Shown here piece by piece: positions 1 to 6,632 of a stretch of DNA of 64,000 nt (position 1 is its first letter; each line of letters opens with the position of its first letter). The stretch is from IMG/VR virus record IMGVR_UViG_3300031215_000009, positions 17,442 through 81,441 of that record; one strand, given 5' to 3'. The notes under the pieces are model-generated. The model saw nothing but the letters and a program-made list of their open reading frames with translations, had not been told where the DNA came from and searched no databases. The position numbers and the translations under genes are program-made. This DNA comes from a virus.

Positions 1-16
1 AAATACGATATATATC

Positions 17-205
17 ATGTTTGAAAACCCCAGAAAAAACCCTAATATTAAACAAGGTGATAGATTATTAATTGATTTTGACCAAATCAAAGCACCTAAA
101 ACTAATAAAAATGATATTAATATAGAAAGAGAAAAACTAAAAGAGGATATTAAAAAACCTACGATTAGAATTAACCCACCTAAAAAAGGTAAAAGTTTAT
201 TTTAA
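17..205 (+). CDS. hypothetical protein ending in KGKSLF (possible clamp-binding tail)
   Basis: 62-aa ORF abutting the next gene; C-terminal K-x-x-L-F like PolB fragment 3. Confidence 0.5.
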   Translation: MFENPRKNPNIKQGDRLLIDFDQIKAPKTNKNDINIEREKLKEDIKKPTIRINPPKKGKSLF

Positions 206-679
206 ATGAATGAAGAAAACGAAGAACTAAAACAAACTGAATTATCAACGTCTGATAAATTAGATGTTGCGTTTGAAAAAGAACGCAAAGAAATATCTGC
301 ATATATTAAAGAAAATATTACAGATAAAATGCATAGTATTGATGAAATAGCAAATCTTCAAGTTCATTTGTTATCTCAACGACAACGATTGGTTGATAAG
401 ACTAATAGTTTAAGAGCCTCTATTAGAAAGAAAAACAAAAGTATGGCAAGGATTAGGAAACAAAAATTTCGTTTCTATAAACTCGACTATGACGTTAAAT
501 TAAATGATTATGAAATAACAAGACATATTGATGCAGATGTAGAGGATGTAGTAAATATGGTTAAAATATTAGAAAATCAAATATTATACTACAAAGATAC
601 AACCGACACGTTAGACAAATGTACTTATATGATTAAGTACTTAATAGACGTTAAAAAGTTTATGTCAGGTAGTTTTTAA
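206..679 (+). CDS. uvsY: UvsY-like recombination mediator
   Basis: Helical protein with HIDADVE and C-terminal YMIKYLIDVKKFMSG resembling T4 UvsY; directly upstream of uvsW. Confidence 0.75.
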   Translation: MNEENEELKQTELSTSDKLDVAFEKERKEISAYIKENITDKMHSIDEIANLQVHLLSQRQRLVDKTNSLRASIRKKNKSMARIRKQKFRFYKLDYDVKLNDYEITRHIDADVEDVVNMVKILENQILYYKDTTDTLDKCTYMIKYLIDVKKFMSGSF

Positions 680-729
680 CACTATTAAATACCTTATAAA
701 CACTATAAACACTATAAATACAAGTACTC

Positions 730-1749
730 ATGAAATTCGAGACAACTCACTCGGGTAAAATATTAACTTTAGTTGACGCTTCTGTTTTAGAAAGAAAGCA
801 ATTAAGTTTATCTTTAACCAAAAAATTAGAATATTACAATTTCTTACCTCCAGCAGTTAAGAAAAGATGGAATGGAATTGTATCTTATTTCCACAAGGAT
901 AGATTTGTCCCTGTTGGTTTGTGGCAAGAATTAAAGTACATTGCAGAAACTTTCAAATTCCCATTAGAAATAACAGGACTTGGAGAAGCAATATTCTACA
1001 AAGATGTAACAAGAGATGAATTTCAAGATTGGGTAGATGATAAGTTTTTCGGTGCCGTTAATTCTAAAGGTGATGATTTTATTCCAAGAAAATATCAAGT
1101 TGATACTGCATACGCAATCTTAACTAATAAAATATCAGTTAGTGAATTAACAACAGCTGCAGGGAAATCTTTGATTATCTTTATTTGTATTGTTTATTTT
1201 CAAGAAACTGGTTTAGGAAAGAAATTCTTAATGATTGTACCATCTATTGATTTAGTAATACAAGCTTATGAAGATTTTAATGAATATAATAGTTTTTTAT
1301 TAGAAGATAATAGATTTCCATTGAATATCAAACAAATTCATGGGGGAGAAAAGAAAGACTTTATTGCATCACAAAATATACATGTTAGTACGTTTCAATC
1401 ACTTGCTAAATTTCAAAATCAATACTTCACTGTATTTGATACTGTTATTGTTGATGAGTGTTTACACCCAGACAGTTTAATCAAGATGGGAGATAATACA
1501 ACAAAGAAAATATCAGATGTAGTAATAGGAGATGAAGTTTGGACTACTAATGATATTACAGGAGATTTGGAAATTAATAAAGTAGATTATATTTATAAAA
1601 ATCTTTCAAGTCACGAACACTTATATGAATTGGAATTAGAGGATGGTTCGATATTAGAACTAACAGGAAATCACAAAGTAAAACTTTCTGATAAATCTTA
1701 TAAGAGAGTTGATGAATTGACAGGAAGTGAAGATATAATAACTTATTAA
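730..1749 (+). CDS. uvsW: UvsW SF2 helicase fragment 1 fused to split intein N-part (IntN 1459..1746, 96 aa)
   Basis: PRKYQ Q-motif, TAAGKS Walker A, VIVDE followed by CLHPDS (intein block A) and LTGNH (block B). Confidence 0.93.
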   Translation: MKFETTHSGKILTLVDASVLERKQLSLSLTKKLEYYNFLPPAVKKRWNGIVSYFHKDRFVPVGLWQELKYIAETFKFPLEITGLGEAIFYKDVTRDEFQDWVDDKFFGAVNSKGDDFIPRKYQVDTAYAILTNKISVSELTTAAGKSLIIFICIVYFQETGLGKKFLMIVPSIDLVIQAYEDFNEYNSFLLEDNRFPLNIKQIHGGEKKDFIASQNIHVSTFQSLAKFQNQYFTVFDTVIVDECLHPDSLIKMGDNTTKKISDVVIGDEVWTTNDITGDLEINKVDYIYKNLSSHEHLYELELEDGSILELTGNHKVKLSDKSYKRVDELTGSEDIITY

Positions 1750-1753
1750 ATAA

Positions 1754-2032
1754 CCTATAAAAAGTTTACAAGAAATTATAAATGAACAAACAGAAGCTAT
1801 TCATCAAGATACTGGGATAGAAGAAGGACAACGCAAAGATGTTGATGAAAAAGTAGAAAAGAAGAATCAACAGAATATAGATAAGTTCAAAGGTTTAGAA
1901 GTTTACTTAAAAGAAAATGACTACAAATTCCATTTAATAGATGAAGACTATTTTAGTGTTCAAGATTATTCTTCTTTGGAAAACCAACCAAATAAAAAAT
2001 TACTTAAAACCAGACTAAAAGCATTTATATGA
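1754..2032 (+). pseudogene. remnant of endonuclease gene between intein halves
   Basis: Open frame without ATG ending DKFKGLEVYLKENDYKFHLIDEDYF...KAFI*, like a PD-(D/E)XK/TnsA-type nuclease C-terminus; stop overlaps IntC ATG (ATGA). Confidence 0.5.
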
Positions 2033-2832
2033 AAATAAAGAAAATAACAAAAAAGAAATATAAAGGTGATGTTTATAATCTTAGAATAGATAGTGAAGAT
2101 GGAAACAATCATAATTACTTTGCTAACGATATTAATGTATCGAATTGTCATAGAACTAAGTCAAACACTATTAGAGAATGTATTAGTAAGTGTGTAAATG
2201 TAGAAAGACGTTTCGGATTAACAGGAACAACTCCAAAACAAGGTACTTTAGATAGTTTAACACTACAAGCATATCTTGGTCCCAAGGTAATAGAAGTTAA
2301 AGCAAAAGAATTACAAGACAAAGGAGATATTGCAGAAGTTGATATAGCAATTGTTGAATTGATTTACCCTGAAGAAATTCAAAAACGATTTGATGATATT
2401 AAAAAGAGTATGACAGGTGAAGACAAAGGAAAACTTCTTAAAATAGAACAAGATTTTATTATTAAGTACATTCCTAGAGTTGAATTAATTTCAAAAGTCA
2501 TTTCTAAAGTTCAAAAAAACCAATTAGTGTTGTTTCACAGACAAGCTTATGGTAAACAACTTAAAAAGTACTTAGAAGAAAATACAGATAAAGAAATATA
2601 TTTTATTTATGGTGAAACTAAGAAAGATGATAGAGCTGAGATTAAAAGATTGATGGAACATGATGTTATTGAAAAGGAAATAGATGCTTTTCGATTTGAT
2701 TCAGAAGGTAATAGTTATGAAATATCACACAATGAGTATATTAGATTAGTAAATGGTAAATCTATAAAGGTGTCAAATTTAAGTGAAAATGATGATATTG
2801 ATTTGAAAAGTATATCTAAATTTAAAGTTTGA
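2029..2832 (+). CDS. uvsW: UvsW fragment 2: IntC (39 aa, ends VSN) + helicase middle + degenerate half-Hint tail
   Basis: YNLRI..HNYFAN.INVSN|CH restores DECH motif II; GLTGT motif III; LVLFH motif IV; tail resembles second half of IntN. Confidence 0.92.
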   Translation: MKIKKITKKKYKGDVYNLRIDSEDGNNHNYFANDINVSNCHRTKSNTIRECISKCVNVERRFGLTGTTPKQGTLDSLTLQAYLGPKVIEVKAKELQDKGDIAEVDIAIVELIYPEEIQKRFDDIKKSMTGEDKGKLLKIEQDFIIKYIPRVELISKVISKVQKNQLVLFHRQAYGKQLKKYLEENTDKEIYFIYGETKKDDRAEIKRLMEHDVIEKEIDAFRFDSEGNSYEISHNEYIRLVNGKSIKVSNLSENDDIDLKSISKFKV

Positions 2833-2877
2833 ATCACAACTGGAGTAAATATATAAAATATATAAAATAGATATATT

Positions 2878-3819
2878 ATGAAAAATGATTTACTTAAATG
2901 TTTCCAAGAAAAACATGGAACTCCAGATAATGTAAATAAATTAAATGAATATGTTGATTTCCTCCTGACATATAAGTTAAATGAAACTGAATATACTGAA
3001 AATCATCATATATTAGATAGGGCATCATTCCCAGAATTTGAAAAAGAAGAATGGAATATTATAACATTAGACTATAAAGACCATATTAAAGTACATGAAA
3101 TGTTGTTTGAAGATTATAATATTAGAAGATACCAAAGAACTCTTACTTTCAAAGGAGTGAAAAAAGATTATAAGTTACTTTCTAATGCAGCAAAGAAAGG
3201 ATGGACTAAATTTAAAAACAACAAAGTAAAATATGATTTATTTTGTTTACGTAGAAGTGTAATAATGAAAACACTTTCGTCAGATGAACAATCAAGAAGG
3301 GGTAAATTATTTTGGGATAATTTATCAAGTGATGAATTAGAAAAATGGAAAATGAAATGTAATAAAGGTAGAACCAACGAATCAAAAATAAAACAAAAAG
3401 AATCAATTAATATTTATTATTCTAATCCTGATAATAGGGAAAAGAAATCTAAAGAAACAAAAGACTATTGGGATTCATTAAGTGAATCTAAAAGAAATGA
3501 TTTTAGAAAAAACATGAAATCTATAAATTCTAATGAAGATAAAAGAAAAGATGCAAGTGTAAAAATAAAAAATAAATGGCAAGACCCTGTTTTTCAAGAA
3601 AAAATGTCAAATAGAAAAACTAAACCAAAAAACAAATATGAATTGATATTTGAAGATGGTAATAAAGAAATAATAATTGGGTTTTCTGAAATGATAGAAA
3701 AATATAACTTAAATGCTACACTAATTAGAAAATTCTTAAATACGAAAACCAAAGTAGAATCTAAAAGTAAACGAGAACAAGCATTAAATACAATAGGATT
3801 AATAATAAACCAAATATAA
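2878..3819 (+). CDS. free-standing HNH homing endonuclease
   Basis: YTENHHIL..NIITL...HIKVH HNH motif followed by Lys-rich helical repeats; lies inside the fractured uvsW. Confidence 0.85.
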   Translation: MKNDLLKCFQEKHGTPDNVNKLNEYVDFLLTYKLNETEYTENHHILDRASFPEFEKEEWNIITLDYKDHIKVHEMLFEDYNIRRYQRTLTFKGVKKDYKLLSNAAKKGWTKFKNNKVKYDLFCLRRSVIMKTLSSDEQSRRGKLFWDNLSSDELEKWKMKCNKGRTNESKIKQKESINIYYSNPDNREKKSKETKDYWDSLSESKRNDFRKNMKSINSNEDKRKDASVKIKNKWQDPVFQEKMSNRKTKPKNKYELIFEDGNKEIIIGFSEMIEKYNLNATLIRKFLNTKTKVESKSKREQALNTIGLIINQI

Positions 3820-3820
3820 T

Positions 3821-4163
3821 ATGGCACAAATAACAAATTTAAAACACATAAAAAAGAAAGTAGAGGCTGCAAGAGTTCTTGTAGCCTCTTATTAGGTGCG
3901 GTACGTTATCGACAGGAATTAACATAAAAAATATCCATAATATTCACTTTACTGAATCGTTTAAATCAGATGTTATTGTAAGACAGTCTATTGGTAGAGG
4001 TTTAAGACAACATAAAGATAAAGATAAATTAAGAGTTTATGATTTTGTAGATTGTCTTAATACTGGAAAAGATAACATGTTAATGAATCATTCAAGAGTT
4101 AGACGAACAATCTACAAAGAACAACAATTTGATTATATTATCAAGAAAGTACATTTAATTTAA
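3821..4163 (+). CDS. uvsW: UvsW fragment 3 (motifs V-VI), interrupted by 7-nt insert TAGGTGC at 3893..3899
   Basis: MAQITNLKHIKKKVEAARVLVASY* then in +1 frame GTLSTGINIKNIH...VRQSIGRGLRQH...VYDFVD, matching UvsW VASYGxxSTG and QxIGR; missed by ORF track. Confidence 0.85.
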
Positions 4164-4167
4164 TAAT

Positions 4168-4203
4168 GGTCTCATAGAGTTAAATACTTTATGAGACCTT
4201 TTA
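4168..4203 (+). terminator. intrinsic terminator
   Basis: GGTCTCATAGAGT / ACTTTATGAGACC stem followed by T tract. Confidence 0.8.
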
Positions 4204-4253
4204 TTTTTTATAAAGTTTTTAATTACATTAAATAATTAAAAGAAATATAGTAA

Positions 4254-4601
4254 ATGAAGAGTTTAAATGAATTTTTAAAGGAAGAGGTATCTGATAAGTT
4301 AGAAGAAAGAACTGTTCAAGTTAAAAGAAAATATGGTATTCATGATTCTATCAAAGTTGGAGCAATTGCACCAGTTAGATTAAAAATATTAGGATTTATT
4401 GCAGAAAAAGGTCATTGTACTAAAGATGAATTAAAAGAATTTATAAATTCTAAAAATGAAGATTCAGGGACAAGAACTAATATGTCTTGGTTAAGAAAAA
4501 ATGCAAAATATATTACAGAATTTGAAAAAGATGGTTGTAGTTGTTGTAAACTTTCTAAACTTGGTAAAAGAGTTATAAACAAAACAAATATCAACGATTA
4601 A
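4254..4601 (+). CDS. hypothetical late protein (winged-helix-like, capsid-targeting-like N-terminus)
   Basis: MKSLNEFLKE start; ATTAAATA upstream. Confidence 0.65.
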   Translation: MKSLNEFLKEEVSDKLEERTVQVKRKYGIHDSIKVGAIAPVRLKILGFIAEKGHCTKDELKEFINSKNEDSGTRTNMSWLRKNAKYITEFEKDGCSCCKLSKLGKRVINKTNIND

Positions 4602-4667
4602 TAGTTTAATTCGCAATTAAATCTAATTAGGATTAAATATAGTAACTAAAAAATATAAACATAAAAA

Positions 4668-5261
4668 ATGAAAAATTTAACAGGATTTATAAACGAGGCT
4701 CAAAAGTCTAAAAAACAAAAAGAATATCAAGATTTCTTTGATAAGAAATTAGAAAAATATAATGTAAAATCACCTGCAGAACTTGATGATGCTGAAAAGA
4801 AAAAATTCTTTAATGAAATAGATAAAGAATGGACAGGTGAAGCTACAAACGAAAAGAAAGTAGAAGAAGATTTCGATTCTGAAGATGATGAAGATTCTGA
4901 AGACTTGAAAGATAAGAAAGATAAAGACGATAAGAAAGACAAAAAAGAAGAAGATGAGGATGATGAAGAAGATGAGGATGATGAAGAAGATGAAGATGAT
5001 GAAGAGGATGATGAAGAAGATGAAGATGAAGAAGAAGATGAGGAAAAAGTTGATGAAAGTTTAATAACAGAAAAAGAATCTAAATTTGCTAAAAAATTCA
5101 AAGGGTTAGTAGATAGTAAAGATATTGCAGGAATTAGAAACGGTGTAAAAAACGTTTTCGCTGATTTAGCAGAAGAAGGAGCAGCTAATGAAGATATTAG
5201 AGAATTTATTCAAATGTATGTTGATATTTCATTGGATCAAATCGAAGCATCTGTTGGATAA
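4668..5261 (+). CDS. acidic putative head core/internal protein
   Basis: MKNLTGFINEA start, long D/E tract, late-promoter motif upstream. Confidence 0.65.
   Translation: MKNLTGFINEAQKSKKQKEYQDFFDKKLEKYNVKSPAELDDAEKKKFFNEIDKEWTGEATNEKKVEEDFDSEDDEDSEDLKDKKDKDDKKDKKEEDEDDEEDEDDEEDEDDEEDDEEDEDEEEDEEKVDESLITEKESKFAKKFKGLVDSKDIAGIRNGVKNVFADLAEEGAANEDIREFIQMYVDISLDQIEASVG
4947..5043 (+). repeat. low-complexity GAR/GAY repeat encoding EEDEDD units
   Basis: tandem gaagaagatgaggatgat-like units. Confidence 0.8.
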
Positions 5262-5290
5262 GTATAATAAAACACAACAAAACACATTAA

Positions 5291-5320
5291 AAAAGGAATC
5301 TCAAAAGGATTCCTTTTTTT
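5291..5320 (+). terminator. intrinsic terminator
   Basis: AAAAGGAATC-TCAAAAG-GATTCCTTTT + T tract. Confidence 0.85.
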
Positions 5321-5322
5321 AT

Positions 5323-5350
5323 TGATTAAATATTAAAACTTAGAATTACT
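5323..5350 (+). repeat. 28-bp direct repeat copy 1 (late promoter + leader)
   Basis: TGATTAAATATTAAAACTTAGAATTACT identical at 9046..9073. Confidence 0.9.
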
Positions 5351-5354
5351 ATAC

Positions 5355-6632
5355 ATGGCAAATTGTAACATTATAACTTTAAAAGGAACATCTTCGATTT
5401 CAAATGATAGAATCATTATAAATGAAAATTTTAAAAACCTTATTGGGTGTTTAAAAGAACTACAATCTTTAGTAGATTCTGGAAATATAGATATTAATAG
5501 TAATTCTGTTAGTAATGATTCGAATGTTCCTGGTAATACTGTTACCAATGCACTAAATAATTTATTATCTTCAATGTCAACAAGTAATTCAGTTACTTTA
5601 GTTGATTTACTTGATGATTTACCATATATTGGTAGTAGTGGTGATTTATGTTTTGTTAGAGATATAACTGCAAAAACAACACCTATAAGTGCATTATATA
5701 TTTATGATACAGAATGGAAACAATTAATTAGGGAAGATTCAAATACGTACATAACAGATTTGAATGATGCTATCGAATCACCGGGTCTAAATATAATAGG
5801 AGCAACCGTCGCAGATATAAAAGGTAAAACATTCTCAGATTTCATTGATATTTACGTGTTTCCAACTGTAGCAGCATCAATATCAGCAAACGAATCTGCT
5901 AATATAGTTTATGCTGGTGCATCTTCAACTGTTGAAGTAGGTACCACACTAGATGTTACATTAACTGCAACATTTAATAGAGGTTCTATACAAAATGGTG
6001 ATGGTAGTTCAGGTCCATTATTAGTAGGTTTACCAAATCAATATGAATTTTCTGGACCTGGTATTTCGGTTCCTGTTGTAATTACATCAACAAATTTATC
6101 TGAAATATTAACAACTGCAAATACTGGAATGTCAACAGTATTAGCGATTTTCGGTTCACAAAATTGGGGAATTGATATTGATTATGATGCTGGAAGTGGT
6201 ACTTATTTAGATTCTAAAGGAAATGTTGCTAATAATCTTGATGGTAGTAGAGTATCTGGAAATGATACAGATGATACACCAAATATTACAGGTAGATATT
6301 ATGTATTTTATGATACTGGTTCAATAGTATCAAATTCAGCACAAGTTAGAAATTCATCAGGAAAAGTATTTTTATCTGCATCTAATACTGGTTCATTTAC
6401 TATAAATATACCATTAAATACAGCAGAAGTATATTTTTCAGTTCCTACTGGAAAATCAGTACAAGTAAATTACGTACAAAGTTCAAATGCAGACGTAACA
6501 GGGTCATTTGCTAGTTCAACATTTAATGTTGATGATGCTAGTGGTTCTGCAGTATCTTATGATACTTGGCGTTCTACTATTGGTGGTGGAGGTTATCCTG
6601 CAAATGCAACATATAACGTAGTAATAAGTTAA
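5355..6632 (+). CDS. putative virion structural protein (fibre/Ig-like, beta-rich)
   Basis: S/T/G/N-rich beta-strand composition; late promoter upstream. Confidence 0.6.
   Translation: MANCNIITLKGTSSISNDRIIINENFKNLIGCLKELQSLVDSGNIDINSNSVSNDSNVPGNTVTNALNNLLSSMSTSNSVTLVDLLDDLPYIGSSGDLCFVRDITAKTTPISALYIYDTEWKQLIREDSNTYITDLNDAIESPGLNIIGATVADIKGKTFSDFIDIYVFPTVAASISANESANIVYAGASSTVEVGTTLDVTLTATFNRGSIQNGDGSSGPLLVGLPNQYEFSGPGISVPVVITSTNLSEILTTANTGMSTVLAIFGSQNWGIDIDYDAGSGTYLDSKGNVANNLDGSRVSGNDTDDTPNITGRYYVFYDTGSIVSNSAQVRNSSGKVFLSASNTGSFTINIPLNTAEVYFSVPTGKSVQVNYVQSSNADVTGSFASSTFNVDDASGSAVSYDTWRSTIGGGGYPANATYNVVIS

What the first reader, a model, noticed from the sequence alone, without database searches (positions are those of the whole stretch)
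2660..3870. Second UvsW break bridged by an apparently non-catalytic split half-Hint module
Seen: between helicase motifs IV and V, fragment 2 ends with VIEKEIDAFRFDSEGNSYEISHNEYIRLVNGKSIKVSNLSENDDIDL. This aligns by eye to the second half of the gene's own IntN (LYELELEDGSILELTGNHKVKLSDKSYKRVDELTGSEDI). It has no Cys/Ser block A, and block B TxxH reads SHNE. After an intact HNH gene, fragment 3 starts MAQITNLKHIKKKV, like the basic first strand of an IntC (MKIKKITKKK), but without blocks F/G and runs straight into ARVLVASY. Inference: one half of the pseudo-symmetric Hint fold was kept as a non-splicing zipper that reassembles the split RecA2 domain, letting an endonuclease sit inside an essential gene without splicing. 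I do not know of this being described.
Basis: partly seen in the sequence, partly recalled or inferred. Interest (0 to 1): 0.9.

Follow-up and report, generated by a model that had tools for sequence, protein, structure and literature searches.

The report
Endonuclease cassette splitting a phage helicase
A selfish endonuclease gene has cut a phage helicase gene in two and brought along a leftover piece of an intein as a probable protein clasp, plus a hairpin and a tiny stop-containing gap that ribosomes apparently have to jump, much like the famous gene 60 hop of phage T4.

Summary
The quoted sequences are there. The 55-aa tail of fragment 2 (2665-2829) really is a non-catalytic Hint piece. 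A 31-member tail profile matches the last third of this gene family's own IntN (hhalign 92.9%, E 3.8e-7). It also finds genuine inteins among 1.84 billion proteins. Two AF2 models match almost only inteins, at low Z.

Fragment 3 stops at TAG (3893) right after ..VLVASY. Motif V resumes 7 nt later in the +1 frame, without a start codon.

The whole unit is widespread: tail, Mob-like HNH gene, 15-aa head, a cassette copy of the deleted helicase codons, a 12-bp hairpin and the gap. Thirty-eight of 64 metagenome loci hold it in UvsW. In 27 of 27 distinct gap-bearing junctions a stop follows the Tyr codon, and gaps are 4-17 nt. No single frameshift explains all of them. The downstream part is under purifying selection.

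The closest known system is T4 mobA/gene 39-60, with its tails and 50-nt bypass, followed by mobE-split NrdA. The best reading is no splicing, non-covalent assembly through the tails, and a ribosomal hop or shift. Binding of tail to head and the hop itself are inferred, not shown. This scan also noted the gap independently (e1-6113774).

The parts
730..1458 (+). UvsW-type helicase, N part up to the DE of motif II
   Evidence: ResIII 1.4e-13 and DEAD 2e-9; phrog_16259 DNA helicase 2.9e-47; tblastn to unsplit L001 residues 1-235
1459..1749 (+). Split-intein N fragment (first break), starting at Cys after DE, with TGNH block B; includes the stop
   Evidence: Hint 3.2e-7 at aa 242-325; 7-member IntN alignment with invariant C1, H3, TGNHKV
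2029..2145 (+). Split-intein C fragment ending ..VSN, followed by Cys +1 at 2146
   Evidence: 6-member IntC alignment with invariant NHNY and VSN; sequence
2146..2664 (+). Helicase middle part (CH of motif II to ..RLMEHD)
   Evidence: phrog_9690 DNA helicase 1.3e-28, protein 3-211 to profile 15-209; tblastn to L001 residues 223-401
2665..2832 (+). C-terminal tail (CTE), 55 aa plus stop: a non-catalytic fragment homologous to the second half of an intein N fragment
2878..3819 (+). Free-standing Mob-like HNH homing endonuclease gene
   Evidence: phrog_12434 HNH endonuclease 3.1e-15; invariant HH..N..H..H; weak tblastn hits to genes annotated MobD-like/Mob-like; the same gene sits at the same UvsW site in 38 of 64 loci
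3821..3865 (+). N-terminal head (NTE), 15 basic residues unique to the cassette
   Evidence: 24-member alignment; pN/pS 0.19 for the 24-codon ORF; the ATG lies 1 nt after the HEG stop
3866..3892 (+). Cassette copy of the helicase strand (AARVLVASY) that precedes motif V; the last codon, TAT, is the proposed take-off codon
   Evidence: Matches KRLLVASF of unsplit L001; Tyr codon in 27 of 27 gap-bearing loci
3862..3889 (+). 12-bp hairpin with a 4-nt loop, ending directly before the Tyr codon
   Evidence: MFE -19.9; helix 88.5% paired against 37-60% when slid, with several pair types at two positions; mean -18.6 in 27 gap-bearing loci against -6.3 in 75 HEG-less loci
3893..3899 (+). Coding gap TAGGTGC: an in-frame stop plus 4 nt
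   Evidence: reproduced in contigs of runs X1 and X3; family table
3900..4163 (+). Helicase C part (motifs V and VI to the natural C-terminus), with no start codon of its own
   Evidence: phrog_9690 8.2e-27, profile 220-306; open for 86-99 codons in 28 of 28 loci that reach its end; pN/pS 0.18; the first six codons are conserved as residues but use 3-6 different codons each
4168..4198 (+). Terminator-like hairpin with a T run after the gene
   Evidence: The only terminator-like site in 600-4400

Best explanation
The second break is a mobile cassette built around a Mob-like HNH homing endonuclease. It has inserted into the RecA2 domain of a UvsW-type helicase.

The cassette supplies five things:
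1. A tail of about 55 aa on the upstream fragment. The tail descends from the second half of a split-intein N fragment and has lost block A and the block B Thr/His.
2. The endonuclease gene.
3. A 15-aa basic head.
4. Its own copy of the nine helicase codons removed by the insertion, written so that they fold into a 12-bp hairpin.
5. A 7-nt gap that begins with a stop codon directly after the Tyr codon.

Nothing is spliced at this break. The two chains assemble non-covalently, probably with the tail, and perhaps the head, acting as a clasp or assembly aid. This would parallel the tails of mobE-split NrdA and of T4 gp39/gp60.

To make the downstream chain, a ribosome that started at 3821 pauses with peptidyl-tRNA-Tyr on UAU and a stop codon in the A site. 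It moves forward over the gap, most likely by a short hop helped by re-folding of the hairpin behind it. It then resumes at GGT 3900.

At the DNA level the gap probably also spoils the endonuclease's own target, as the 50-nt gap does for MobA.

Shown here: the anatomy, the homology of the tail, the conservation of the cassette, the covariation of the hairpin, and purifying selection on both sides of the gap.

Inferred: binding of the tails, the hop, and the immunity role.
For: Tail is Hint-derived.
- hhalign gives 92.9%, E 3.8e-7; the controls give under 0.3%.
- The profile search of 1.84 billion proteins gave 124 hits at E of 0.001 or less. Five of them (P0072, P0073, P0090, P0102, P0112; E 7.6e-8 to 5.1e-5) are intein-bearing proteins. 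They are matched over their CTP(D/H)H block B segment.

The cassette is conserved.
- 38 of 64 loci found with the endonuclease hold it between UvsW pieces at the same site.
- 110 of 123 matched tails end within 15 residues of a protein C-terminus, and no fused full-length form was seen.
- L220 has lost the endonuclease but keeps the tail, stop, start, head, hairpin and a 17-nt gap.

The gap.
- In 28 of 29 junction rows a stop directly follows the Tyr codon.
- Among 27 distinct gap-bearing loci the gap lengths are 7 nt (14 loci), 4 (5), 8 (2), 5 (2), 6 (2), 9 (1) and 17 (1).
- One shift at the Tyr codon gives an open path in 21 of 27. It does not in L134, L136, L142, L154, L157 and L220.
- The first six codons after the gap are G T L/F S T G in 27 loci, written with 3-6 different codons each.
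- pN/pS of the C part is 0.18. The pair L140/L141 has pS 0.34 and pN 0.

The hairpin.
- It is present in 27 of 27 gap-bearing loci, with MFE from -12.8 to -26.7.
- It is absent in the one gap-less cassette, L151 (-3.8).
- It is weak in 75 HEG-less genes (mean -6.3).
- Covariation is shown.

Other points.
- No intron was found.
- The contig holds no tRNA gene and no second UvsW, and TAG ends 8 long ORFs.

Precedent.
- The MobA element has a CTE, an NTE, a copy of the deleted host segment and a gap that opens with a stop.
- The NrdA tails are essential for activity.
Against: - No expression, protein or binding data exist for any of these loci. No RNA run was listed and the complex predictor was unavailable.
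- Take-off and landing triplets match in only 7 of 27 loci. The window has TAT against TGC. The gene 60 family has matched codons.
[quoted passage not shown] In gene 60 the conserved stem-loop includes the take-off codon, and its 5' stem-loop is poorly conserved.
- In the window itself a plain +1 shift would also give an open frame, with two extra residues.
- No Pfam Hint model matches any of the 31 tails.
- The head shows no measurable likeness to IntC.
- For NrdA the tails were not needed for heterodimer formation (section heading), so 'clasp' may be too simple.
- Hairpin covariation is counted on related sequences and overlaps coding constraints.
Confidence: 0.6

Rival explanations
1. The cassette is the same, but the ribosome makes an ordinary +1 frameshift at UAU UAG G. 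It is stalled by the stop and pushed by the upstream hairpin, as in prfB. Fragment 3 then carries two extra residues (R, C) between ASY and GT. Relatives use +1, -1/+2 or readthrough according to their gap.
For: The window's +1 path is open. 17 of 27 gaps are 1 mod 3 with an open +1 path, and 4 of 27 have an open +2/-1 path. 18 of 27 gaps start with TGA, 5 of them as TGAC. That TGA followed by C is the prfB shift context and a poor termination signal is recalled, not from a call. Short shifts at stops are better documented than hops.
Against: Six of 27 loci cannot be read by any single shift. These have a stop directly before the Gly codon in the target frame, or two in-frame stops, or a 17-nt gap. 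Yet their C parts are intact. The residues that would be inserted differ freely between close relatives (D, N, EY, ED, KD, KY, EV, RC), as expected of untranslated sequence. tRNA-Tyr has no +1 re-pairing on AUU.
Confidence: 0.2
2. One reading: fragment 3 is a plain ORF, and a half-Hint zipper alone explains how the gene works. No recoding is involved.
For: The tail is Hint-derived. One relative (L151) does have a plain ORF without a gap.
Against: In the window the ORF from 3821 ends at TAG 3893 after 24 codons, and the motif V/VI frame has no start codon. Contigs of two runs confirm the letters. 27 of 28 distinct junctions carry such a gap.
Confidence: 0.03
3. The tail and head are leftovers with no role in assembly. 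The two RecA2 halves find each other through their own interface, or the tail serves another purpose such as folding, stability or regulation of the endonuclease.
For: NrdA-a and NrdA-b still form a heterodimer without their tails (section heading). The T4 insertion is described as a pendant with little influence on activity. The tail's pN/pS of 0.39 is the weakest constraint of the three parts.
Against: The tail is kept in all 31 aligned loci across endonuclease identities down to about 32%, and also after loss of the endonuclease in L220. The tail is acidic and the head basic, as in split inteins. The NrdA tails are essential for activity.
Confidence: 0.2
4. The stretch 2665-3899 is removed by splicing, either as a group I/II intron or as an unusual working split intein.
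For: Endonuclease genes inside genes are usually housed in introns or inteins. The same gene has a working-looking split intein at the first break.
Against: There is no Rfam intron match in 1-6000 at E of 1 or less. The tail evolves as a protein. L220 keeps stop and start 11 nt apart without the endonuclease. There is no Cys/Ser/Thr at the start of the tail, no conserved TxxH, no blocks F/G, no terminal Asn, and no conserved nucleophile after the head.
Confidence: 0.03
5. The gene is a dying pseudogene. The endonuclease killed a dispensable helicase and the pieces only look intact.
For: The gene carries two breaks and a frame break. That UvsW is not essential in T4 is recalled, not tested here.
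Against: pN/pS is 0.18 for the C part and 0.19 for the head over 22 and 133 pairs. The C part is open in 28 of 28 loci that reach its end. The contig has no second UvsW, though it is only an 81-kb contig.
Confidence: 0.04

Closest known systems
T4 MobA element in the topoisomerase II large-subunit gene (genes 39, mobA, 60, with the 50-nt translational bypass)
   Different: The host gene is UvsW, not topoisomerase; that paper mentions neither 'helicase' nor 'UvsW'. The gap is 4-17 nt, not 50. Take-off is Tyr, not Gly/Asp, and the landing triplet matches in only 7 of 27 loci. [quoted passage not shown] The head is 15 aa, not about 30. Profile likeness of the MobA tail to this tail or to IntN is not significant (8.8% and 3.2%).
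mobE-split NrdA of Aeromonas phage Aeh1 (Friedrich 2007, recalled; Crona 2011, PMC3045599)
   Same: A free-standing Mob endonuclease fragments an enzyme gene. The tails created by the insertion are essential for activity. The authors proposed electrostatic tail pairing and a possible origin from a degenerate split intein.
   Different: No coding gap or recoding is reported there. An intein origin was only speculated. Here it is supported by profile and fold comparisons for the tail.
Fractured genes: split intein halves with a free-standing endonuclease gene between them (Dassa 2009, PMC2677866)
   Same: The gene order is host N part, Hint piece, endonuclease, second piece, host C part. They occur in phage replication genes from metagenomes. 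The first break of this same gene is of that kind, without an endonuclease in the window and with a 274-aa ORF in L220.
   Different: Those inteins keep all splicing blocks and are expected to ligate the exteins. At this break blocks A, F and G and the nucleophiles are missing.
Low-level stop-hopping and prfB-type +1 frameshifting in E. coli (mentioned; details recalled)
   Same: A P-site tRNA faces a slowly read stop codon, and the ribosome makes a short forward movement of a few nucleotides.
   Different: Those are either inefficient accidents or a single fixed +1 shift with a Shine-Dalgarno stimulator. Here a conserved hairpin precedes the site, and the distance varies from 4 to 17 nt between relatives.

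Membership tests
Intein / Hint fold (tail 2665-2829) | Sequence-profile similarity to the N-terminal splicing region | tested here: met
   hhalign to the IntN profile gives 92.9%, E 3.8e-7 over 33 columns. The profile search finds 5 intein-bearing proteins over their block B segment. No Pfam Hint model reaches E of 10 or less on any of 31 tails.
Intein / Hint fold (tail 2665-2829) | Hint-like three-dimensional arrangement | tested here: met
Working (split) intein | Block A nucleophile (Cys/Ser) as first residue of the N fragment | tested here: not met
   The tail corresponds only to IntN columns 63-95. The first half is absent and no conserved Cys/Ser follows the helicase part.
Working (split) intein | Block B TxxH | tested here: not met
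   Most relatives read KSDF. The window reads EISH, keeping His but not Thr. No column there is invariant. Genuine inteins matched by the profile read CTPDH or CTPHH.
Working (split) intein | Blocks F/G, terminal Asn and a Cys/Ser/Thr +1 residue on the C fragment | tested here: not met
   The head is 15 aa and runs into the helicase strand. There is no HN or SN and no conserved nucleophile. hhalign to IntC gives 1%.
Mob-type free-standing HNH homing endonuclease | HNH (beta-beta-alpha-metal) motif and likeness to Mob genes of T4-like phages | tested here: met
   HH..N..H..H is invariant in 7 sequences. phrog_12434 matches at 3.1e-15. tblastn to genes annotated MobD-like/Mob-like gives 28-32% identity at E 1e-4 to 6e-6. 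There is no Pfam hit.
Mob-type free-standing HNH homing endonuclease | Site-specific cleavage of the cassette-less allele and homing | not testable with these tools
   The only evidence is indirect: the same insertion site in 38 loci of diverse UvsW genes.
MobA/gene 60-type bypass cassette | Split host ORF with conserved C- and N-terminal extensions and a cassette copy of the deleted host segment | tested here: met
   definition taken.
MobA/gene 60-type bypass cassette | Coding gap that opens with a stop (or hungry) codon after the take-off codon | tested here: met
   27 of 27 distinct gap-bearing loci: TGA 18, TAG 6, TAA 3.
MobA/gene 60-type bypass cassette | Matched take-off and landing codons | tested here: not met
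   The window has TAT against TGC. A Tyr triplet lies before the Gly codon in 7 of 27 loci. The others are GAC 8, TAA/TAG 5, AAY 4, TGC 2, GTC 1.
MobA/gene 60-type bypass cassette | Sequence homology of the cassette parts to the MobA element | tested here: inconclusive
   The CTE profile of 8 phages against the tail profile gives 8.8%, E 0.0038. Against IntN it gives 3.2%, E 0.014. The register is the same in both.
MobA/gene 60-type bypass cassette | Bypass shown at the protein level | not testable with these tools
   No RNA or protein data were available.
UvsW / SF2 helicase | Helicase motifs in order, over the full length of an unsplit relative | tested here: met
   tblastn of the 504-aa L001 protein covers residues 1-235, 223-401 and 413-502 in three window pieces. 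The PHROG helicase families match.

The most novel reading that the evidence does not exclude
This is a second, independent natural family of programmed translational bypassing. A Mob-like endonuclease cassette in UvsW genes makes ribosomes hop 4-17 nt from a Tyr codon over a stop codon. The hop is driven by a covarying hairpin that re-forms at the mRNA exit. The two helicase chains are held together by a domesticated half of a Hint domain. The same origin may hold for the 'unique' tails of the T4 gp39/gp60 element.
Probability: 0.4. Interest if true: 0.92.

Novelty: new variant of a known kind. Interest (0 to 1): 0.8.

Why it matters
As of 2022 the bypass cassette of the T4 gene 60 / MobA family was called unique (section read). 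Here is a look-alike element in another gene, with 27 natural variants of gap length, stop codon, landing triplet and hairpin. That makes it a ready-made mutational series for asking what moves a ribosome forward without decoding. The hairpin lies exactly where the 'exiting mRNA as driver' model would want a spring.

The tail also gives the first sequence and fold evidence, as far as my searches show, that the assembly tails which mobile endonucleases leave on split genes can come from inteins. That idea was only speculated for NrdA. A naturally evolved, non-splicing Hint half that still brings two chains together would interest people who engineer split proteins.

For annotation, such loci are called as broken genes. 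The C part, which has no start codon, is easily missed.

Tried and rejected
- Introns: the Rfam scan of 1-6000 at E of 1 or less gave no intron, only two chance sRNA rows elsewhere.
- Pfam on the tail gave no Hint hit, alone or over 31 members. A weak Y_Y_Y match in 13 members (best 0.0073) was taken as a beta-strand pattern.
- The PDB sequence search with the tail profile gave nothing significant; Ataxin-1 at E 0.24 was best.
- The word-index protein search for the tail found only the window's own protein.
- The exact DNA pattern for the Tyr-stop-gap found 1 true locus among 121 matched places.
- Two IMG/VR scans with the endonuclease found a single contig.
- Cultured phages: no record covers 80% or more of the endonuclease. 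The long tblastn alignments of fragment 2 to Pseudomonas phage PA5oct turned out to be an unsplit helicase.
- No RNA holder was listed for the stretch, so nothing can be said on expression. Parts without contig cover are not evidence.
- The head-versus-IntC profile comparison was not significant.
- T4 gp39 tail against this tail or IntN: single sequence 6%, E 0.006; 8-phage profile 8.8% and 3.2%. I kept this only as a lead. An IMG/VR scan for more MobA tails returned 5 T2/T6-like unsplit genes.
- No consensus structure was found in the 60 nt after the gap. The hairpin is not terminator-like by the scan.
- TAG reassignment was rejected. Reading TAG as sense leaves the wrong frame, TAG ends 8 long ORFs, and there is no suppressor tRNA.
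- A hop landing on the cognate UAC at 3902-3904 was rejected, because the next codons run into a stop.
- Not in print, as far as these searches go: a UvsW gene split by an endonuclease with tails, a bypass or hop in a helicase gene, or a natural non-splicing Hint remnant used as a clasp.
Full report
WHAT IS IN THE WINDOW

The window is the last 64 kb of an 81.4-kb, 28.7% G+C phage-like contig. Stretches of it occur in salt-lake metagenome runs.

One UvsW-type helicase gene lies in pieces between 730 and 4163:
- Fragment 1 (730-1749) ends in a split-intein N fragment that starts at the Cys after the DE of motif II.
- Fragment 2 (2029-2832) starts with the matching C fragment (..VSN, then Cys) and carries the helicase as far as ..RLMEHD.
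- It then runs on for 55 residues that no helicase has.
- A 313-aa HNH gene follows at 2878-3819.
- One base after its stop, an ATG at 3821 opens a 24-codon ORF. It has 15 basic residues, then AARVLVASY, then TAG at 3893.
- The rest of the helicase (GTLSTGINIKN.., motifs V and VI) starts at 3900, in the +1 frame. That frame is open only from 3885 and has no ATG, GTG or TTG.

An unsplit 504-aa relative (L001, uncultured phage LR756500.1) reads ..KKLMEVGD KRLLVASF GTFSTGINITN.. without interruption. The window therefore has two things at this place. One is a large insertion between ..MEHD and ..ARVLVASY. The other is seven extra bases (TAGGTGC) between SY and GT.

Contigs from two runs reproduce the 7-nt site without a difference: X1 at 3511-4020 and X3 at 3860-4010. 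Other contigs bridge tail to endonuclease and endonuclease to head. X1 may be the sample of origin.

It did not see the stop and the frame break.

IS THE TAIL A PIECE OF A HINT DOMAIN? YES.

With the endonuclease as bait I collected related loci (see below) and aligned 31 tails (A6) and 7 IntN fragments of the first-break intein family (A7).

Profile against profile, the tail matches the last third of IntN (columns 63-95, the block B strand and what follows) at 92.9% probability, E 3.8e-7. The same tail profile against the helicase C part and against the endonuclease gives 0.1% and 0.24%.

A profile search of 1.84 billion cluster representatives gave 124 proteins at E of 0.001 or less.
- 123 of them have a listed match. 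In 110 of those the match ends within 15 residues of the protein's C-terminus. These are tails of split genes.
- None of the 123 has the tail in the middle of a full-length helicase.
- Five hits are long proteins with Pfam intein domains. The tail profile aligns to their ..CTPDH.. or ..CTPHH.. segment, which is block B and its two flanking strands.
- Three other outliers are repeat proteins that I take as unrelated.

AF2 models of the window's tail (pLDDT 80.6) and of the family's typical tail (L151, pLDDT 85.6) show four short strands and a helix. Aligned to 48,161 representative chains:
- Npu DnaE IntN residues 43-99 are among the best.
- Foldseek has no hit at E of 0.001 or less, though inteins fill its top ranks at rmsd 1.2-2.5 A.

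The catalytic features are gone. There is no first half and so no block A. TxxH reads KSDF in most relatives and EISH in the window.

The head shows no measurable likeness to IntC (1%). On that side the 'half-Hint' idea rests on position and charge only.

THE CASSETTE IS WIDESPREAD AND HAS A FIXED BUILD

The protein search found five relatives of the endonuclease. A scan of JGI and ENA metagenome contigs gave 64 loci.

In 38 of them (L124-L158, L160, L161, L163) the endonuclease match lies next to UvsW pieces at the same place. The other 26 are short contigs or more distant HNH relatives without UvsW. One of the 38 is the IMG/VR contig found earlier (L003 = L154).

The order is always the same:
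- helicase N part
- tail of about 50 aa
- stop
- endonuclease
- ATG
- basic head of about 15 aa
- nine helicase codons ending ..(V/I)(A)SY

Of 29 junction rows (28 loci and the window), 28 have a stop codon directly after the Tyr codon, and then a few bases before GGN ACN.. (G T L/F S T G).

Three loci stand out.
- L151 has no gap. It has Phe instead of Tyr and a plain ORF.
- L158 keeps ASYGTF and then shifts by one base.
- L220, found in a scan for the C part, has lost the endonuclease. The tail's stop and the head's ATG are 11 nt apart. It keeps tail, head, hairpin and a 17-nt gap.

THE GAP IS NOT READ, BUT WHAT FOLLOWS IT IS

Among 27 distinct gap-bearing loci:
- The gap is 7 nt in 14 loci, 4 in 5, 8 in 2, 5 in 2, 6 in 2, 9 in 1 and 17 in 1.
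- It starts with TGA in 18, TAG in 6 and TAA in 3.
- The codon before it is always Tyr (TAT 19, TAC 8). In 75 cassette-less genes that position is Y, F, L, M, T or V.

A single +1, +2 or -1 shift at the Tyr codon gives an open path in 21 of the 27. It does not in six: L136 and L142 have a stop directly before the Gly codon in the target frame, L134 and L157 have two in-frame stops, L154 has one in-frame stop, and L220 has 17 nt ending in TAA.

The residues that a shift would insert differ between close relatives. L140 and L141 have identical C parts and differ by one base in the gap.

The sequence after the gap is clearly translated from its first codon.
- The six codons G T L/F S T G are kept in 27 loci, with 3 to 6 different codons each. 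These include both serine codon families.
- The frame stays open for 86-99 codons to the natural C-terminus in all 28 loci that reach it.
- pN/pS between cassette-bearing loci has a median of 0.18 over 22 pairs. L140/L141 have pS 0.34 and pN 0.
- The head ORF has pN/pS 0.19 (133 pairs) and the tail 0.39 (105 pairs).

So ribosomes must arrive at the Gly codon already translating. The one movement that serves all 27 loci, and restores exactly the sequence of unsplit helicases, is a forward hop of the peptidyl-tRNA-Tyr ribosome from the Tyr codon to just before the Gly codon.

Against a gene 60-like hop, the triplet before the Gly codon is a Tyr codon in only 7 of 27 loci. The rest are GAC 8, TAA/TAG 5, AAY 4, TGC 2 and GTC 1. 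All but GTC differ from UAY at one position.

For the window alone, a +1 shift giving ASY-R-C-GT cannot be told from a hop.

THE HAIRPIN

Directly before the Tyr codon every gap-bearing locus has a stem of 10-14 pairs with a 3-5-nt loop. In the window it is 3862-3889: 12 pairs, one G-U, MFE -19.9.

On 28 aligned sequences (24 distinct rows):
- The helix is paired in 88.5% of cells, against 37-60% when the partner is slid by 1-3 columns.
- 23 cells have changes on both sides, against 0-8 in the slid controls and 5.0 on average in the shuffles.
- Two positions show AU, GC, GU and UA or CG.

These changes are largely synonymous third positions of the Ala and Val codons.

The mean MFE of the 51 nt before the Gly or stop codon is -18.6 in 27 gap-bearing loci (range -12.8 to -26.7). 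It is -6.3 in 75 cassette-less UvsW genes (range -0.2 to -11.9). It is -3.8 in gap-less L151.

The hairpin is not terminator-like, and no conserved structure follows the gap.

With the Tyr codon in the P site, the 3' arm lies inside the ribosome. Re-forming the stem would pull mRNA out at the exit. That is the kind of 'driver' proposed for gene 60 (passages read). This step is my inference.

WHAT IT IS LIKE

The build matches, part for part, the MobA element that splits the T4 topoisomerase gene into genes 39 and 60: a conserved C-terminal extension, the endonuclease, a unique N-terminal extension, a cassette copy of the deleted host segment, and then a coding gap that opens with a stop. In that family too the endonuclease can be lost while the rest remains. 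The gap protects the element from its own nuclease (Manning and Atkins; abstract, sections 12 and 19 and passages read). That preprint calls the bypass cassette unique and mentions neither helicase nor UvsW.

The window's endonuclease is weakly similar to genes annotated MobD-like or Mob-like in T4-type phages.

For mobE-split NrdA the tails are essential for activity. The authors speculated that they might be remnants of a degenerate split intein (Crona et al.; abstract and passages read).

The T4 insertion has been solved as a 'pendant' on the TOPRIM domain and is read as an assembly aid (PMC11461880, passages read). That paper does not contain the word intein.

Fractured genes with working split inteins and an endonuclease between the halves are the third relative (Dassa et al., passages read).

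New here are the host gene, the evidence that a tail comes from a Hint domain, the very short and variable gap, and the conserved 5' hairpin.

WHAT REMAINS OPEN

No tool could show that tail and head bind. No RNA or protein data exist for these uncultured phages. The hosts are unknown.

The hop, the clasp and the immunity role are inferences from anatomy, conservation and analogy.

An earlier first-stage note of this scan (e1-6113774) also flagged the 7-nt gap and the stem as a candidate bypass or +1 frameshift. I reached the same view from the sequence before reading it, and tested it on relatives.

VERDICT

I give 0.6 to the reading of a Mob-type split-gene cassette with a Hint-derived tail and obligatory recoding. 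I give about 0.4 to the bolder reading that this is a true second family of programmed hopping.

Novelty: a new variant of a known kind. Interest: 0.8.

Noticed in passing
window 1754-2028: Between IntN and IntC of the first break, a 91-codon frame is open in 29% G+C DNA. It has no ATG/GTG/TTG near its start, and its stop overlaps the IntC ATG (ATGA). It has only a faint PHROG hit (helicase loader, E 0.052). In L220 the same place holds a 274-aa ORF, so this may be the stump of an endonuclease gene.
   Followed up: partly
L268 (T4) 3781-3918 minus strand; PDB 8yo3 chain C about 470-538: The C-terminal extension of T4 gp39 aligns in the same register to this tail and to the IntN block B region. 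The scores are weak: single sequence 6%, E 0.006; 8-phage profile 8.8% and 3.2%. The solved T4 TOPRIM insertion also turns up among the tail models' weak structural matches. The classical MobA tails may also be Hint-derived.
   Followed up: partly
L151 4494-4826: This is the one cassette with an endonuclease but no gap. It has Phe instead of Tyr, different Ala and Ser codons, and no hairpin (MFE -3.8). It serves as a natural control linking hairpin, Tyr and gap.
   Followed up: yes
L220 2109-3264: This cassette has lost the endonuclease. The tail stop and the head ATG are 11 nt apart. The hairpin is kept, and the gap is 17 nt ending in TAA.
   Followed up: yes
L158 about 4640-4700: In this divergent cassette ASYGTF is continuous and the frame then shifts by one base before STG. 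It could be a different recoding site or a sequencing error.
   Followed up: no
P0007 (196 aa, Logan): A relative of the endonuclease was called with an N-terminus resembling helicase motif V (..LSTGLNIQ..) directly before the endonuclease start. This hints at another insertion point just after motif V.
   Followed up: no
L002 (Prevotella phage Lak-B2) 1146-1718 and about 3000-3942: Lak megaphages carry the same split intein at the same DEC site of their UvsW gene. They are 73% identical in DNA to the window over the IntC start, but have no second break.
   Followed up: partly
window 4668-5261: A 197-aa ORF whose middle is a long run of Asp/Glu (GAA/GAT repeats). The relative L001 has a similar gene after its UvsW.
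   Followed up: no
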